Below, in pieces: positions 8,660-56,594 of a stretch of DNA of 64,000 nucleotides. Origin of the DNA: Octopus sinensis (taxonomy: Eukaryota); contig NC_043018.1 of NCBI RefSeq assembly GCF_006345805.1, forward strand, positions 2,914,001 through 2,978,000, given 5' to 3'. Within the stretch, counting starts at the first letter, position 1. Each line of letters opens with the position of its first letter. Both the position numbers and the translations under genes were made by a program. The notes beneath the pieces are model-generated. The model was not told where the DNA came from. It saw only the letters and a list, made by a program, of their open reading frames with translations, and did not search any database.

Positions 8660-9600
8660 ATTACGGAACAATCCATCTATTATCAGCCTCATGCTGTCCG
8701 ATAGTTGCTCTGAAACCGCCGTCTTCTGGTTTTCTCCGTCTGTATGATGGCTACCTATCAGCACTTCTCTGAGTTTCTTGTAGGAACCTCTTTGGAAACG
8801 TTTTCGAACATTAGCTGTCTTTCAAGCATGGTGAGTTTATGTTGAATCCACGCTCTTATGGACCACGCACCATGTTTGCCTTAACTATTGCGTATTGTAC
8901 TTTCTGTAAAGCTGGATCAGGAAGATTTGCAGAGATCATCTTATCGATGTCAGTGGATTTGATCTTCGTTGACAGCCAAAGCAGGATATGAGCATGTGGA
9001 AGGCCCCTTTTTGACATTCGATTGTGTACATGTCACATTTTATGGGTCCGAAGACTTGTCCCTTTTGTTATGAGCTCCATGAGAGTGATTAACTCCAGAT
9101 GGAAAACTCGGGCGAGGAGGTCATGCCTGTCTGTAGGTTTTTGACGGAAGAAGAGTTCGGCCTGAATCTTTTTCCACTTGGGATTGAATGTGAAAGTTAT
9201 GAACAGGTCAGGCCTGCCCTAATGGCGGACAAAGGTCATTGCATCCTCTGTTCTTTCATGCATGTATCGGGGACTTCCACTGAACGTGCGGGGGTGGGGG
9301 TGGAAGAGGCAAACTCTTTCTATGCTTGTTGGAGCAGAATCATTTTTGATGAAATCTCGGAGATGGATGTAGCTGTCAGAACGCAATTTTTTAATGTGAC
9401 CTGAAGCAACACAATCTCTCTGTTTCCATTTTTGCGCACATATCAACTTCAGATCGATGAAACAGCTCTCAAGCCTGGTGGAGGTGGTTGCAGCAGTTGT
9501 TTCGGGTCTTTGCAGCTCATGCAGTAGCAGTTGAAGCAGCATCAATAGTTCGTTGACCTTTACGCTGGTCATCTGTTTGGAATGCTCTTGAAGTGGCTGT
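8660..9600 (-). mobile_element. Helitron RepHel fragment (Rep/HUH domain), pseudogenised
   Basis: Minus strand: LRSDSYIHLRD...TFSGSPRYMHERTEDAMTFVRH*GRPDLFITFTFNPKW...DRHDLLARVFHL...MYTIE..KRGLPHAHILLWL (HUH motif); stops and frameshifts present. Confidence 0.93.
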
Positions 9601-9647
9601 ACGTTCAGCCTTTTGTGATCGTCTAAGGAAGATGAGATCGTGAGGTG

Positions 9648-10121
9648 ATGGATAATGAAAGCAAAAAAAGTGAAAAAGTGTCAGAGCCAGAGGTATATAA
9701 GGATGAAACATCTAAGAATTTACTGATTGTGCCAGCGAAGGAAGGAGATGCAGGAGTTTAATTGAGCGAAGGTGAGATGGAGGGACTGTTCATAGTGGAG
9801 GACGAGAAGAGTGTACAAAGAGTTCAGCAAGATAAAGGAAAGAAATTACGAGGAGATGTTCAATGGAATTACGTAACGTACCCAAAATGCAAAGAGACGG
9901 AAAAGAAGATACTTACGTTCAAATCCAGAATAAAAGTTAAGCTGCCATCGTATGTATACGCAGGAGATATAAAGGCGATAGTAGCTGACAAGGACACCTA
10001 TAAGAAATTAAAAGAGTTGTCTGGAGATAGTATTGACCCACCAGGAGTGAGGGTGGAATTCAAAGAATTGCCACCAGAAGTACAATTAGAAGTTATAGAA
10101 CCCCTTATGAAATATTATTAA
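9648..10121 (+). pseudogene. Unidentified coding-like frame (157 codons) with one in-frame TAA at 9759-9761
   Basis: ATG at 9648 is in frame with track ORF 9762..10121: MDNESKKSEKVSEPEVYKDETSKNLLIVPAKEGDAGV*LSEGEMEGLF...VRVEFKELPPEVQLEVIEPLMKYY. Non-repetitive and protein-like; family not recognised. Confidence 0.45.
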
Positions 10122-20078: not shown

Positions 20079-20162
20079 TGGCTGATGAGTGCTCAGCCTT
20101 TTAAAACTGTTGTAATACTTACAACACTTAATAAAATGATGTAGTGCGAAACGATCGTACCA
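20079..20162 (+). ncRNA. Type I hammerhead ribozyme, canonical core
   Basis: TGG | CTGATGA | GTGCT...AGTGC | GAA | AC-GATC-GT | A | CCA. Stem I TGG/CCA; stem II closed by G-C and extended by the hairpin TGTTGTAA/TTACAACA; palindromic stem III ACGATCGT; GUA triplet, predicted cut after 20159. Confidence 0.85.
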
Positions 20163-39609: not shown

Positions 39610-40901
39610 CGAGGGACGTTCAATAAGTAATGCCTCAGACCCACTTGCAGTTCTTTGATCTAGCTGAAATTTTGTCTGTGCAATTATTTATATCTCTATA
39701 GATTAAGTGGCAAATTACAGCTCTGAAATAATTGTGGTTTCTGATTTACAGGTGTTTGAACTGAGTCAAGTGTGAAATGGAGCCTGTTGAGTGTCGAGCA
39801 GTGATCCGGTTTTTGTATTTGAAAGGACGCACACCACGTGAGACATTTGATGAAATGAAAGTAACTTATGGTGATGATGCCCCATCATATGACCTTGTAA
39901 AACCCTGGCATCGTGAATTCAAACATGGTCGGAACTCTGTGGAAACAGCTCCCAGATCTGGTCGCCCCCCTTCTGCCATTGATGAGGCATCTGTCCGTCA
40001 AGTTGAGGCTGCCATTTTGGAAGATCGACGCATAACAATTCGCCAAATAGCCCATCAGGTCAAGATTAGTACCGGGTCTGTGGAAACTATCATTCATGAC
40101 CACTTGCATATGCAAAAGGTGTCTGCCAGATGGATTCCCAGGCTGCTCACACCTTTCCAGAAGCAAGAACGCGTCGAGTGCTCGAGGATGAATTTGGAGA
40201 TGTGCCAAGAAGATGAGTCAAAATTTTTCAAAAGACTGATTACACAGGATTAAACCTGGGTCCATCACGATGATCCAGAGACCAAAGCCCAGTCAATGCA
40301 GTGGAAGCACCGTGACTCACCTCCTCCAAAGAAGGCAAGGGTGCAGCCCTTCGCTGGCAAGGACATGCTCACAGTCTTCTGGGACCAGGACGGAGTAGTG
40401 ATGACAGATTTCCCGGCAAAGGGTACCACAATTACAGGAGCCTATTATGCTTCACTTTTGAGGAAATTAAGAGAAGCTATCAAAATCAAGAGGCGGGGCA
40501 AGATCAGAAAAGATATCCTCCTCCTGCAGGACAACTCTCCGGTCCACAACTCGCGTGTCGCCAGATCAGAAGCACAGGCGTGCGGCTATGAACTCCTCCC
40601 CATCCCCCCTACTCTCCTGACCTTGAACCCTCTGATTTTCACCTCTTCCCAGCCATGAAGTTGTTTCTGAAGGGAAAGCGTTTCACAGATGATGCAGCCT
40701 TGATTTCTGAAGTCACGTCGTGGTTGGAGGACCAAGCTGGGGGTCTTCTACAAAAACGGTCTCCAGAGCTGCATCAAACAATGGGAGAAATGCGTAACTC
40801 TGGGTGATTCCTATGTAGAAAAATACTAATAACTGTGCTAAGTTTCGTTGCTCTACTGCAATGGGAAGTGGGTCAGGGGCATTACTTATTGAACGCCCCT
40901 C

Positions 40902-52983: not shown

Positions 52984-54506
52984 CTTGTAGTATTTTTGTT
53001 TTTAATATCGAACTCCTTTTCACTAAATGCTACATAAATGACGTAAGCAAGTCTTGTCCTCATACAAATACACATGGGTGTACTTATTTTTGTGTATGTT
53101 GAGTGTAAATATGTTTATATGTGAGTTTCTATATGTGTTTAAGGGATTCTGCACACTTTCTCTTTAGCAAATATTTTTAATACGTCACTGCTGGGACCGA
53201 GTCTGCAACAAAGCGACAGATAGTAGGCCTGGCCGACAAAATATTCTGAAGCAAGTAATCCCCTAAATTACATGGGCAATTTAGAGTGATTTTTGTTTAG
53301 TTGTTTTAGGGGAATTTTTTTGCAACTATCGTTTCTTATTGTTACGATTAACCATGTAGAGGGCGGGATTTGATGACCTCTTCAGATTTTGAAACATAAA
53401 GTATTGCTGATCGTTCTAACGATGATTGCCCTTCGATTGCCTTACGTGAGGGTCCTTTGAGTTTCGAGTCAAATTCCAAACATCTTTGTATTCACAAATG
53501 ATTCCTTTCAACAACACATTTGAAATAAAAAGACACATCCGTAGTTTGGTTACACATTGCATCGTAAATAGGACGAGGTTGTCCAAAATGCGGTGATGCC
53601 AGATCTCACCGCTTTACTACACACGGTGAATTAGCCAACCAAGAGAATTACCAGTGACATGTTGGATCACGAATACGTATGTGATTATGTTCGTGATGGT
53701 CTAGATTCACTGTTTGGTGCGGCTTCAAATCCTGCAGGATGATCAACAGTGTATTGCAAATAAGCAAGTTCTTAAAGCTGTATAACTTCTTTTTTTATAT
53801 TGAAGCACAGGAAACATATGAGTCTGGGGTTAACCCAGTTAACAGTTTATTTATAAAATGGCAATGTCTACGATTCAAACTCGTGAGGTGTACACTAATT
53901 TCTGTGTGGTAGAGTAAATATTTGGGGCAGCTGGTAACTCAACTTGTTGAGCACCATTGATATCACTAAATAAGAATTCTAGATTCCTGAAATATCCTCA
54001 AGTGTTCAAACTGAGAAAACTGAAGTAGCACGTCCAAAGATGGCGTTCCTAATCATTTAAAGCAAAAACGAACAAAAGGATGGAGTAAAAATAATATTAT
54101 GAAATATTATCATTATCACCACATGAATCAGCACCTGACTGATAGGAAACATACGAAGCATGCAGTGTGAGTATAAGAGAATATCTCAGGTACAACGACC
54201 AAACATCGTGCATCAAGTGCGAAATAATGAATGGTGTAAGCGGGAACATGGTCAATAATACTTCAAGCTATAATTTCAGAACTCATTAATTTTAAGCGGA
54301 GACGAGCGGCTGATTTGAAGGCAGTTAAGCGAATGTCGGATGAGAATGAATAATTAATTAAACCTTAATTGCTCCAAATTTATTTCGTCCTCAGAATTTC
54401 CTGAATAAATCGGTAGAATAGAATCTTTTTGTGTCTAATTCTCCTTACACAAGCACAGTGACATACACTCAGCTATCCATCCGGATATATATAGATATAT
54501 GTGCAT

Positions 54507-54539
<33 letters not shown>

Positions 54540-54788
54540 ACACGCGCATATATATATATACATACACACATATACGCGCATATATATATATATATATGTA
54601 TAAAATTTATAAAAATATGGTAAAGCAAAAGAATTCACTTTCACACACCGAACTTTTCAGAAATAGCAGCCAAAAATTTGGCTTTTCTTCAACTGCAAAT
54701 AAAAGTCTCCAGACAATGCATACTCAGAAAAATAACTCACATAGGTATAAGGGAGAAAAACAATGAAAGATCAATCCATATACGATAC

Positions 54789-54848
54789 CCGAGGACAGTC
54801 TGTTTCTGGATTTGTGGGTAAAACGCCACTTTTCCTTCATCAGCTCAG
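54789..54848 (-). ncRNA. Type I hammerhead ribozyme, canonical core with GUC site
   Basis: Minus strand CTGAG | CTGATGA | A-GGA-aaa-GTGG..CCAC-aaa-TCC-A | GAA | ACAG-a-CTGT | C | CTCGG. 5-bp stem I (one GU pair), interrupted stem II, near-palindromic stem III; predicted cut between 54794 and 54793. Confidence 0.82.
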
Positions 54849-54913
54849 AGATTTCTTGATCAGTTCAAATCTAAATTAGTATATATATGTATATATATAT
54901 ATATATACATATG

Positions 54914-55204
54914 TGGAAGCGCGATGGCCCAGTGGTTAGGGAAGCCGACTCGCGGTCGTAGGATCGCGGTTTCGATTCCCAGACCAAGTGTTGTGAGTGT
55001 TTATTGAGCGAAAACACCTAAAGCTCCACGAGGTGGTGGCGACCCCTGCTGTACCCTTTCGCCACAACTTTCTCTCACTCTTTCTTCTGTTGGCCCGCTC
55101 GTTTAGCCAGCGTCATTTGAAGGCTAAAACAATGCGAAACGCATTGTGACCGGCGATGTGTAGCAACATCTGATACCCTGGTCGGTCACGGTGATCACGG
55201 TGAT
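54914..55204 (+). mobile_element. SINE family C with a second tail type
   Basis: TGGCCCAGTGGTTAGGG..GACTCGCGGTCGTAGGATCGCGGTTTCGATTCCCAGACC head plus central domain; tail ends in (CACGGTGAT)2. Confidence 0.9.
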
Positions 55205-56494: not shown

Positions 56495-56594
56495 NNNNNN
56501 NNNNNNNNNNNNNNNNNNNNNNNNNNNNNNNNNNNNNNNNNNNNNNNNNNNNNNNNNNNNNNNNNNNNNNNNNNNNNNNNNNNNNNNNNNNNNN
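56495..56594. other. Assembly gap (100 N)
   Basis: Run of N characters. Confidence 1.

What the first reader, a model, noticed from the sequence alone, without database searches (positions are those of the whole stretch)
54600..54880. Second intact hammerhead (GUC site, minus strand) in an unrelated 280-bp TA-flanked island
Seen: a canonical core with a GUC triplet, 5-bp stem I, bipartite stem II with an extra A on each side, and stem III ACAG-a-CTGT whose 1-nt loop cannot close intramolecularly. Outside the core the sequence shows no evident similarity to the 20-kb island, but the setting is the same (short, non-coding, between TA tracts). Inference: an independent family with the same architecture, probably an obligate-dimer ribozyme.
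Basis: partly seen in the sequence, partly recalled or inferred. Interest (0 to 1): 0.75.

Follow-up and report, generated by a model that had tools for sequence, protein, structure and literature searches.

The report
Hammerhead motif in a 562-bp retroelement
The TA-flanked island is a truncated copy of a 562-bp non-coding repeat that carries a complete hammerhead-ribozyme core of the kind known from Penelope-like elements and animal retrozymes; it is predicted to cut its RNA only when two copies pair, so it is a new member of a known class, not a new kind of element.

Summary
On the minus strand, 54849-54788 holds all the conserved hammerhead core bases, a GUC site (predicted cut 54794|54793), a 6-bp helix I, a two-part helix II closed by A/A, and the helix III near-palindrome ACAG-a-CUGU. 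Rfam does not recognise it. A relaxed motif scan expects 0.033 such hits per 64 kb by chance.

The "island" (54857-54604) is a 5'-truncated copy (unit 306-561) of a 562-bp, 35% GC, ORF-less repeat. About 250 motif-bearing copies exist in the 2.72-Gb genome. The repeat forms tandem arrays of up to 8.5 units and head-to-head inverted arrays. It has variable 5' ends, and its 3' ends lie at AT-rich sites fused to (TA)n. This is the insertion behaviour described for Penelope-like elements and non-LTR retrozymes.

The motif shares several traits of Penelope-type minimal hammerheads: an extra base after A9, a long helix II and a palindromic helix III. Folding predicts that helix III forms only between two copies.

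Cleavage, expression and circular RNA are untested. The copies are too alike for a covariation test. No Penelope partner was found. Instead, a LINE-type element (ORF2: endonuclease plus reverse transcriptase) sits inside the unit in at least 10 loci.

Verdict: a new member of a known kind.

The parts
54604..54857 (-). 5'-truncated copy (unit positions 306-561) of the 562-bp repeat unit, 97.3% identical to reference copy L018:1758-2319
   Evidence: BLAST of the unit against the window and against locus L001; own-genome search
54788..54849 (-). Type-I hammerhead motif: helix I 54849-54844 with 54793-54788; core CUGAUGA 54843-54837; helix II 54836-54807; GAA 54806-54804; helix III 54803-54795; C17 at 54794
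   Evidence: Sequence; relaxed scan, the only hit in the window; 0.033 expected per 64 kb; folding
54793..54794 (-). Predicted (untested) self-cleavage site, 3' of C54794 (GUC|C), which is unit position 369|370
   Evidence: Position of H17 in the motif; no cleavage data
54864..54876 (-). 13-nt exact match to the reverse complement of unit 290-302, directly upstream of the truncated copy: a miniature version of the family's head-to-head 5' junctions
   Evidence: larger inverted 5' copies at other loci
54879..54915 (.). (TA)n-rich tract on the 5' side of the copy, likely part of the target microsatellite
   Evidence: Sequence; 13 of 49 family segments have a (TA)>=3 run within 40 nt upstream
54483..54603 (.). 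(TA)n/(TG)n microsatellite fused to the 3' end of the copy
   Evidence: Sequence; 42 of 49 family segments have a (TA)>=3 run within 40 nt downstream; the mir-297/mir-466-like Rfam hits here are low-complexity matches below gathering score

Best explanation
The island is a 5'-truncated copy of a 562-bp non-coding retroelement whose sense strand carries a complete type-I hammerhead core, and that core is predicted, not shown, to self-cleave after C54794 only when two copies pair through their near-palindromic helix III.

Shown: the motif itself. Shown: the 562-bp unit, with about 250 motif-bearing copies. Shown: tandem arrays of up to 8.5 units and head-to-head inverted arrays. Shown: variable 5' ends, and 3' ends at AT-rich sites of the unit (about position 562 or 101, more rarely 385, 421 or 446) fused to (TA)n. 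Shown: the motif lies on the strand that this polarity defines as the RNA template strand.

Inferred: arrays are transcribed into multimeric RNA, and neighbouring hammerheads form a double ribozyme and cut at unit 369|370. The 562-nt RNAs are then likely circularised by a host ligase. A reverse transcriptase acting in trans, primed by a nicked (TA)n target annealed to an AU-rich stretch, would copy the circle or multimer into new tandem insertions. This is the life cycle proposed for animal non-LTR retrozymes. The driver enzyme is unresolved: my estimate is a Penelope-type RT about 0.55 and the nested LINE's RT about 0.25.
For: Motif: all conserved core bases, the GUC site and three helices are present. 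The chance expectation is 0.033 per 64 kb over both strands, which by my arithmetic is about 1.5e-4 for one strand of a 562-nt unit.

Family: 209 exact copies of the 50-nt core and 250 copies of the 62-nt motif with <=3 mismatches; reversed-pattern controls gave 0.

Structure: arrays of 8.5, 5.4, 4.8, 4.2, 3.6 and 3.1 units, and inverted head-to-head arrays. Among 49 mapped segments, 25 end at about unit 562 and 10 at unit 101, and 42 have (TA)n within 40 nt downstream. 5' ends are scattered, apart from a cluster at 233-235 explained by the LINE junction.

These traits (5' truncation, partial tandems, an inverted truncated copy at the 5' end, (TA)n bias, a hammerhead near the 3' end) are described for Penelope-like elements in PMC8557442 (passages read). 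Tandem type-I hammerhead repeats with low GC are the definition of non-LTR retrozymes in PMC7229834 (passages).

The unit has 35% GC and no ORF: the longest open stretch in a dimer is 95 aa. The cut-to-cut monomer RNA folds far better than shuffles (-167.7 against -124.0 +/- 5.9 kcal/mol, z = -7.4).

Motif traits match the Penelope 'min-HHR' description, namely a base between A9 and 10.1, a G-C pair next, a 7-bp helix II and a palindromic helix III (PMC4209133, passages). The same genome holds Rfam-grade type-I hammerheads (7 of 74 scored candidates over cut-off) and Penelope loci whose hammerheads have a long helix II and a palindromic helix III. An active precedent for a mismatch at the foot of helix II is axolotl HHR_Amex2 with U-U (PMC7229834).

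Dimer: helix III pairs have probability below 0.01 in the monomer, and the helix III self-duplex is -8.3 kcal/mol.

In contigs from two other organism labels, the two changes seen at good depth inside the motif keep the fold: C to U turns a G-C pair into G-U, and A to G falls in the internal loop.
Against: No Rfam hammerhead model matches the site, even at E<=10 on 101 nt.

An extra A between 11.1 and G12 is not part of the published Penelope min-HHR description, and Penelope min-HHRs cleave poorly in vitro (PMC4209133).

The hammerhead fold is not the minimum-energy fold of the 62-nt segment (-9.0 against -13.2 kcal/mol). My estimate for the double hammerhead (about -25.1) is no better than two alternative monomers (-26.4).

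None of the 49 mapped segments starts within 365-375 of the unit, so there is no genomic trace of templates ending at the cut site. This fits circles or uncut multimers equally well.

Copies are 95-100% alike, so there is no covariation. The motif's lower variant rate (13/2389 against 24/2785 to 87/3904 in other parts) comes from copies selected for similarity, and insertions decay neutrally anyway.

One low-depth contig from another organism label carries C3 to U in the core.

No sampled GIY-YIG locus (0 of 36) resembles the unit. The only coding sequence found between unit halves is a LINE.
Confidence: 0.6

Rival explanations
1. The motif is a genuine but decayed hammerhead that is now catalytically dead. 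The 562-bp element would spread without any ribozyme step, by reverse transcription of uncut read-through transcripts of arrays.
For: There is no Rfam match. The unusual A/A at the foot of helix II includes an extra A before G12. The hammerhead fold is not the minimum-energy fold. No insertion starts at the cut site (0 of 49). Penelope clades that lack hammerheads proliferate very well, and hammerhead function in Penelope elements is called unclear (PMC8557442). Min-HHRs show low activity in vitro (PMC4209133).
Against: All conserved core bases are intact in 209 exact copies. The core is also intact in the well-supported contigs of other organism labels, where the two changes seen preserve pairing. 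A U-U mismatch at the same place is compatible with cleavage in axolotl (PMC7229834).
Confidence: 0.25
2. The element is driven by the nested LINE rather than by a Penelope-type enzyme. The 6.06-kb composite (unit 1-250, a 5.5-kb LINE with ORF1 and an APE-RT ORF2, unit 233-562) would be the autonomous form, and the 562-bp unit its non-autonomous companion sharing both ends.
For: The composite, with the same 18-bp duplication (unit 233-250), occurs in at least 10 loci. 16 of 30 loci found with the LINE 3' end continue into unit 233-562. 2 of 8 composites have uninterrupted ORF1 (523-589 aa) and ORF2 (1131 aa) with full APE, RT and zf-RVT domains. L114 is truncated inside the LINE body and carries the family's inverted 3' fragment at its 5' end, so the composite is copied as a whole by the unit-type process. 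Arrays mix composites and 562-bp units. PMC7229834 names LINEs as possible mobilisers.
Against: The LINE has its own termini. 10 of 30 loci, the older ones at 93-95% identity, end at ...AATAAAGAAAT next to unrelated flanks that are not (TA)n. The LINE's own integration therefore differs from the (TA)n-linked unit type. The 18-bp duplication flanking exactly those termini is the signature of a LINE inserted into a pre-existing unit. The LINE and unit 3' ends share no sequence.
Confidence: 0.25
3. The hammerhead-like motif arose by chance in an ordinary repeat and has no ribozyme ancestry.
For: By my arithmetic, relaxed-motif hits are expected about 1,400 times in 2.7 Gb of random sequence at the rate. 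There is no Rfam support and no covariation.
Against: The chance of such a motif on the sense strand of one given 562-nt unit is about 1.5e-4. This unit independently shows the insertion behaviour of the one class of elements known to carry such hammerheads (PMC8557442). The motif has the specific Penelope-type traits.
Confidence: 0.05
4. The hammerhead works as a monomer, with helix III closed as 3 bp (A-U, C-G, A-U) plus a GAC triloop, so no dimer is needed.
For: A 3-nt hairpin loop is sterically allowed. The hammerhead structure with this helix III evaluates to -9.0 kcal/mol.
Against: Helix III pairs have probability 0.006-0.009 in the ensemble. Hammerheads with such short helix III cleave poorly or not at all as single motifs (PMC4209133; PMC7229834).
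Confidence: 0.08

Closest known systems
Minimal type-I hammerheads of Penelope-like elements (Cervera & de la Pena 2014, PMC4209133)
   Same: It has the conserved core, an unpaired base between A9 and 10.1 followed by a G-C pair, a long helix II (7 bp), a palindromic helix III expected to pair between two copies, and a location some 190-250 nt from the element's 3' end in tandem or inverted repeats.
   Different: It has an additional A between 11.1 and G12, a 3x3 internal loop inside helix II, and an odd central base in the helix III palindrome. No RT plus GIY-YIG element with matching terminal repeats was found (0 of 36 sampled).
Animal non-LTR retrozymes (Cervera & de la Pena 2020, PMC7229834; Li et al. 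2026 preprint 10.64898/2026.07.22.740005)
   Same: It forms tandem arrays with one type-I hammerhead per unit. It has low GC (35%), no ORF and a strongly self-paired unit RNA. Array sizes are typical, and monomeric and truncated dispersed copies exist. Dimer-dependent hammerheads are known from amphibians, including a mismatch at the foot of helix II.
   Different: The 562-nt unit is above the 170-400 nt reported in 2020, though within the 51-972 bp of the 2026 preprint. Expression and circular RNA are not shown here. A full LINE is nested in the unit and travels with it.
Schistosome Sm-alpha and newt satellite-2 hammerhead repeats (recalled; cited within PMC4209133 and PMC7229834)
   Same: They are dispersed or tandem short repeats that carry a type-I hammerhead with a weak helix III, which acts through dimers.
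   Different: They have a short canonical helix II with loop-loop contacts and are matched by Rfam RF00163. This motif is not.

Membership tests
Hammerhead ribozyme, type I | Conserved core C3 U4 G5 A6 N7 G8 A9, G12 A13 A14, the A15.1-U16.1 pair, and H17 before the cut | tested here: met
   CUGAUGA 54843-54837, GAA 54806-54804, A54803 paired with U54795, C54794
Hammerhead ribozyme, type I | Three helices around the core, with helix I open | tested here: inconclusive
   Five of the six helix I pairs and the three basal helix II pairs are predicted at 0.94-0.99 (the outermost helix I pair at 0.30). Helix III is below 0.01 in the monomer and forms well only between two copies (-8.3 kcal/mol self-duplex). 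10.1/11.1 is A/A.
Hammerhead ribozyme, type I | Match to the curated covariance model (Rfam RF00163 or other hammerhead families) | tested here: not met
   There is no hammerhead match at gathering score or at E<=10 on 901 nt and 101 nt. The same model does find 7 sites elsewhere in the genome.
Hammerhead ribozyme, type I | [quoted passage not shown] | not testable with these tools
   Only contigs were available, and they cannot show RNA ends.
Penelope-type minimal hammerhead | Unpaired base between A9 and 10.1, then a conserved G10.1-C11.1 pair | tested here: inconclusive
   A54836 follows A9, and G54835 pairs with C54808. However, a further A (54807) lies between that C and G12, which the description in PMC4209133 does not include.
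Penelope-type minimal hammerhead | Enlarged helix II (7-8 bp) and palindromic 15.2-16.2 / loop 3 | tested here: met
   Helix II is 3 + 4 bp. Helix III is CAG-a-CUG between A15.1 and U16.1, and 8-nt palindromes occur in this genome's Penelope loci.
Penelope-type minimal hammerhead | Lies in the terminal repeats of an element encoding RT plus GIY-YIG endonuclease | tested here: not met
   0 of 36 sampled GIY-YIG loci resemble the unit. This is a small sample of 5029 first-look candidates. The ORF2 found between unit halves has APE + RT + zf-RVT domains.
Non-LTR retrozyme | Tandem repeats, each unit with one type-I hammerhead; low GC; no LTR and no ORF | tested here: met
   Arrays reach 8.5 units with period about 560. 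GC is 35% and the longest open stretch is 95 aa.
Non-LTR retrozyme | Unit-length linear and circular RNAs in tissues | not testable with these tools
   No RNA holder is on record. Runs only guessed to be RNA hold the unit, including a 597-nt contig that closes on itself, but tandem DNA would give the same result.
Non-LTR retrozyme | Strongly self-paired unit RNA | tested here: met
   The cut-to-cut monomer L018:1566-2126 has MFE -167.7 kcal/mol, z = -7.41 against 100 shuffles.

The most novel reading that the evidence does not exclude
The hammerhead-bearing unit and an intact LINE (ORF1 plus APE-RT ORF2) have fused into a 6.06-kb composite that is copied as a whole. Its 562-bp internal-deletion form is the retrozyme. 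That would make this a retrozyme family driven by a LINE reverse transcriptase rather than a Penelope-type one: an autonomous, ribozyme-carrying LINE with tandem, inverted and (TA)n-linked insertions.
Probability: 0.2. Interest if true: 0.65.

Novelty: new member of a known kind. Interest (0 to 1): 0.33.

Why it matters
The finding adds a well-delimited, young family (about 250 motif-bearing copies, arrays of up to 8.5 units) to the animal hammerhead retroelements.

The motif escapes Rfam. That shows covariance-model scans undercount Penelope-type hammerheads with a long, interrupted helix II.

The nested LINE that travels with the unit gives a concrete system for asking which reverse transcriptase mobilises animal retrozymes. 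PMC7229834 left this question open (LINEs or Penelope elements), and the 2026 preprint answers it in favour of Penelope elements for vertebrates.

Tried and rejected
**RNA evidence.** No RNA holder is listed. The request to lay four runs only guessed to be RNA failed nine times because the machine was busy and was answered. Their contigs hold the unit and cross the predicted cut site. One 597-nt contig (depth 285) closes on itself ('goes back 562'). Contigs cannot show ends or strand, and cannot tell RNA from tandem DNA, so I draw no conclusion on expression, cleavage or circles.

**Covariation.** Within-genome copies are too alike. The searches list or score only the best matches (the best 40 of 915 candidates; only 100 of the 250 places, all exact), so older copies could not be sampled. 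'Diverged' partial copies in the first loci turned out to be the same family with decay.

**Covariance model.** I tried a custom model built from this genome's other hammerheads. MAFFT could not align long and short helix II forms (alignment A1), so no model was built.

**Strict scan.** The scan that requires a 10.1-11.1 pair found nothing.

**Cut-site test.** I looked for insertions that start at the cut site as a genomic trace of cleavage: 0 of 49.

**Recurrent start at unit 233-235.** I first read this as a transcription start or truncation hotspot. It is in fact the junction with the nested LINE.

**The 1026-aa ORF between unit halves.** I took it for the expected Penelope ORF. Pfam shows APE + RT + zf-RVT, which is a LINE.

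**ORFs in the window.** ORFs of 150 aa or more gave no RT or GIY-YIG.

**Wrong stretch folded.** One search folded unit plus flank by mistake; one search is the intended fold. It lacks the first C of the monomer.

**Earlier findings of this scan.** Nothing was found for this genome or sequence.

**Supplementary files.** Those of the papers were not read; they may hold hammerhead families of more species.

Full report
**1. The observation**

On the minus strand of 54849-54788 the sequence reads UCUGAG, CUGAUGA, then A-GGA-AAA-GUGG-(CGUUUUAC)-CCAC-AAA-UCC-A, then GAA, ACAG-a-CUGU, C, and CUCGGG.

- All conserved hammerhead core positions are present: C3-A9, G12-A14, A15.1/U16.1 and C17.
- Helix I has 6 pairs, two of them G-U.
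- Helix II has 3 + 4 pairs around a 3x3 internal loop, with an unpaired A on each side of its foot.
- Helix III is a 9-nt near-palindrome.
- A strict scan found nothing. A relaxed scan that allows one unpaired base at the foot of helix II found this site alone in the window. 300 simulated 64-kb sequences gave 0.033 hits on average.
- Rfam reports no hammerhead at gathering score or at E<=10 on 901 nt or 101 nt. The strong-looking microRNA hits lie on the TA/TG microsatellite and are below gathering score.

**2. What the island is**

The window lies at C22:2914001-2978000 of a 2.72-Gb assembly. The stretch 54857-54610 recurs at 96-98% identity (40 scored of 915 first-look candidates). Flanks of the other copies are shared beyond the window's copy.

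The full unit is 562 bp, and I use the real copy L018:1758-2319 as reference. The window holds unit 306-561 only. It is preceded by a 13-nt exact match to the reverse complement of unit 290-302 and followed by (TA)n.

In unit coordinates the motif is 314-375 and the cut is at 369|370.

The genome holds 209 exact copies of the 50-nt core and 250 copies of the 62-nt motif with at most 3 mismatches. Reversed-pattern controls gave 0. The unit has 35% GC and no ORF: the longest open stretch in a dimer is 95 aa.

**3. How copies are arranged**

Six regions taken from the list of exact matches show:
- tandem arrays of 8.5, 5.4, 3.6 and 2.6 units;
- two pairs of head-to-head inverted arrays, 4.2 with 3.1 units and 2.3 with at least 4.8 units.

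This sample was chosen from exact-match places and is biased towards arrays.

I mapped segments over 32 loci, after dropping four loci (L009, L011, L012, L029) that overlap others. That gave 49 segments.
- 3' ends fall at about unit 562 in 25 segments and at unit 101 in 10. Others fall at 385/386/388 (4), 421 (2) and 446 (1). Two end at 250, which is the LINE junction, and five are pieces of inverted junctions or lie at the edge of a locus.
- The preferred 3' ends are AT-rich stretches of the unit.
- 42 of 49 segments have a (TA)>=3 run within 40 nt downstream. Of the 7 without, one ends in a GATA repeat, two abut the LINE, one abuts the next copy, one is at the locus edge and two are small inverted pieces.
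- 5' ends are scattered, and none lies within 365-375.
- Inverted truncated copies often sit directly at the 5' end.
- Units within an array are slightly more alike (97.9%) than units between arrays (97.1%), and some arrays are at 99.6%.

This set of traits is what Craig et al. describe for Penelope-like elements: 5' truncation, partial tandems, an inverted truncated copy at the 5' end, (TA)n bias, and a hammerhead near the 3' end on the strand whose 3' end is fixed (PMC8557442, passages read). Tandem low-GC repeats with one type-I hammerhead each are how Cervera and de la Pena define animal non-LTR retrozymes (PMC7229834, passages). The 2026 preprint (sections 12 and 14 read) gives consensus lengths of 51-972 bp and mostly up to seven units, and it derives vertebrate retrozymes from Penelope terminal repeats.

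**4. The motif against known hammerheads**

Cervera and de la Pena 2014 (PMC4209133, passages) list these features for Penelope 'min-HHRs': a larger helix II (7-8 bp), a short helix I, an unpaired base between 9 and 10.1, a conserved G10.1-C11.1 pair, and palindromic 15.2-16.2 / loop 3. They also report action as dimers and low activity in vitro.

Here the A after A9, the G-C pair that follows, the 7 helix II pairs and the palindromic helix III all fit. The second A, between that C and G12, is not in the description. Read the other way, the foot of helix II is an A/A mismatch. The axolotl HHR_Amex2 has a U/U mismatch there and still cleaves, better as a dimer (PMC7229834).

The genome itself holds Rfam-grade type-I hammerheads: 7 of 74 scored candidates are over cut-off, and five of the seven have helix III ACAUGUGU. 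GIY-YIG loci also carry hammerheads with a helix II of up to about 55 nt and 8-nt palindromic helix III. One of these shares its helix III (ACGAUCGU) with the window's other site at +20082.

**5. Folding**

- In the 62-nt segment, five of the six helix I pairs and the three basal helix II pairs are predicted at 0.94-0.99; the outermost helix I pair is at 0.30. The helix III pairs are at 0.006-0.009.
- The hammerhead fold evaluates to -9.0 kcal/mol against an MFE of -13.2, in which CUG of the core pairs with CAG of helix III.
- The helix III segment self-pairs at -8.3 kcal/mol. My rough sum for a double hammerhead is -25.1, against -26.4 for two alternative monomers.
- Dimer dependence is therefore plausible but not forced, and a 3-bp plus triloop monomer form is possible.
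- The cut-to-cut monomer RNA is strongly self-paired, with z = -7.41.

**6. Variation**

Copies are young, so no covariation test is possible. In 58 aligned segments the motif has the lowest variant rate:
- motif: 13/2389;
- unit 233-313: 24/2785;
- unit 376-480: 87/3904, of which 34 come from one site where the reference differs from the majority;
- unit 481-562: 28/3237;
- unit 1-232: 96/5114.

The copies were selected for similarity to this region, and dead copies decay neutrally, so I give this little weight.

Contigs of runs labelled as four other organisms hold the unit at mostly 90-99%.
- Inside the motif, the well-supported changes are A to G in the internal loop (L018 2107) and C to U (2112), which turns a G-C pair into G-U.
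- One low-depth contig (depth 2.3, 28 changes in 186 nt) has two pairing-compatible changes in helix I and a C3 to U change in the core.
- The motif is not clearly better kept than the 3' part of the unit.

**7. The nested LINE**

Copies that 'start' at unit 233-235 all share one upstream flank. Locus L074 shows the following order:
- an inverted unit 562-177;
- unit 154-562;
- unit 1-250;
- a 5.5-kb body with a 1026-aa open frame;
- unit 233-562;
- unit 1-101;
- (TA)n.

The frame has APE endonuclease, RT and zf-RVT domains, not GIY-YIG. Two of 8 composites have uninterrupted ORF1 (523 and 589 aa) and ORF2 (1131 aa, with a full APE domain). The body is flanked by an 18-bp duplication, unit 233-250.

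A search with the LINE's last 187 nt found 91 candidates, of which 40 were scored at 87-100%. Of the 30 loci returned:
- 16 continue into unit 233-562;
- 4 continue with the 18 bp and then the LINE's 5' start, which makes tandem LINEs;
- 10, the more diverged ones, end at the same terminus next to unrelated, non-(TA)n sequence.

The LINE is therefore an older, independent family that entered a pre-existing unit.

Eight more composite loci show:
- seven full or nearly full composites with the family's partial upstream copies and inverted 5' fragments;
- arrays that mix composites and 562-bp units;
- one composite (L114) truncated inside the LINE body with an inverted unit fragment at its 5' end.

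So the composite is copied as a whole by the unit-type process. Whether the LINE's enzyme drives this or rides along is open. The different target behaviour ((TA)n against none) speaks for a separate, Penelope-type driver, but none of the 36 sampled GIY-YIG loci matches the unit. Those 36 are a small part of 5029 first-look candidates, of which 147 of 150 scored matched.

**8. Mechanism**

Shown: the motif, the family, the arrays, the junction types and the strand.

Inferred: arrays are transcribed, neighbouring hammerheads pair through helix III and cut at unit 369|370, and unit RNAs are circularised by a host ligase. Priming from nicked (TA)n at AU-rich stretches of a circular or multimeric template then yields new tandem, 5'-variable insertions.

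The use of several internal AT-rich 3' ends, and insertions longer than one unit, fit a template without a fixed 3' end. The absence of insertions starting at the cut site fits circles or uncut multimers alike.

**9. Verdict**

The family is independent and has the Penelope/retrozyme architecture. Dimer dependence and activity are predictions.
- This is a new member of a known kind.
- The most interesting loose end is the LINE that lives inside the unit and is copied with it.

Noticed in passing
L074:2603-8079 (G000:C11); also L111-L118, L073: A 5.5-kb LINE with ORF1 carrying a weak zinc knuckle and ORF2 carrying APE + RT + zf-RVT is nested at unit position 250 with an 18-bp duplication, in at least 10 loci. 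2 of 8 copies examined have uninterrupted ORFs. One copy is truncated inside the LINE yet carries the unit family's inverted 5' fragment.
   Followed up: yes
L080, L086, L096, L097; L099/L101 (G000:C9:70499077-70514774); L122: LINE-only tandem arrays with a period of about 5.4 kb. Copies are joined by the 18-bp unit fragment, by a 27-nt junction, or directly. Flanks of older copies repeatedly contain ...YCGAT(AC), which hints at a target preference.
   Followed up: partly
window 54920-55000 (+): A tRNA-like sequence with box A/B-like motifs, probably a SINE head, sits just beyond the upstream TA tract. ARAGORN finds no tRNA in the window, and Rfam lists no tRNA at E<=10 here.
   Followed up: no
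window 20082-20160 (+): This is the window's other hammerhead-like site: CUGAUGA, a long helix II, GAAA, and helix III ACGAUCGU followed by A. It has the same helix III as a hammerhead in GIY-YIG locus L046. Its helix I is only about 3 bp, so my scan (minimum 4) did not list it.
   Followed up: partly
L018:2244-2298 (unit 487-541): A 55-nt module with hairpin-forming sequence occurs in many other contigs of the laid runs with different flanks: loose ends at 2244/2246 and 2295-2302, and depth up to 7-12 times that of the rest of the unit. It may be a 3' module shared with other repeat families.
   Followed up: no
L018:2400-2688: The flank of this copy contains a long, nearly perfect inverted repeat. 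The 562 nt folded by mistake gave -257 kcal/mol, z = -22.7. It is probably an unrelated foldback element.
   Followed up: no
G000, genome-wide: There are 5029 first-look GIY-YIG candidates, and 147 of 150 scored match, many with identical scores and open frames of 781-883 aa. Penelope-like elements are abundant here and look young.
   Followed up: partly
window 9219-9680 (-), 39765-40253 (+): ORF fragments show a weak Helitron_like_N match (below cut-off) and a Mos1-type HTH_48 match. They are remnants of DNA transposons elsewhere in the window.
   Followed up: no
window 56495-56594: A run of 100 N, which is an assembly gap.
   Followed up: no
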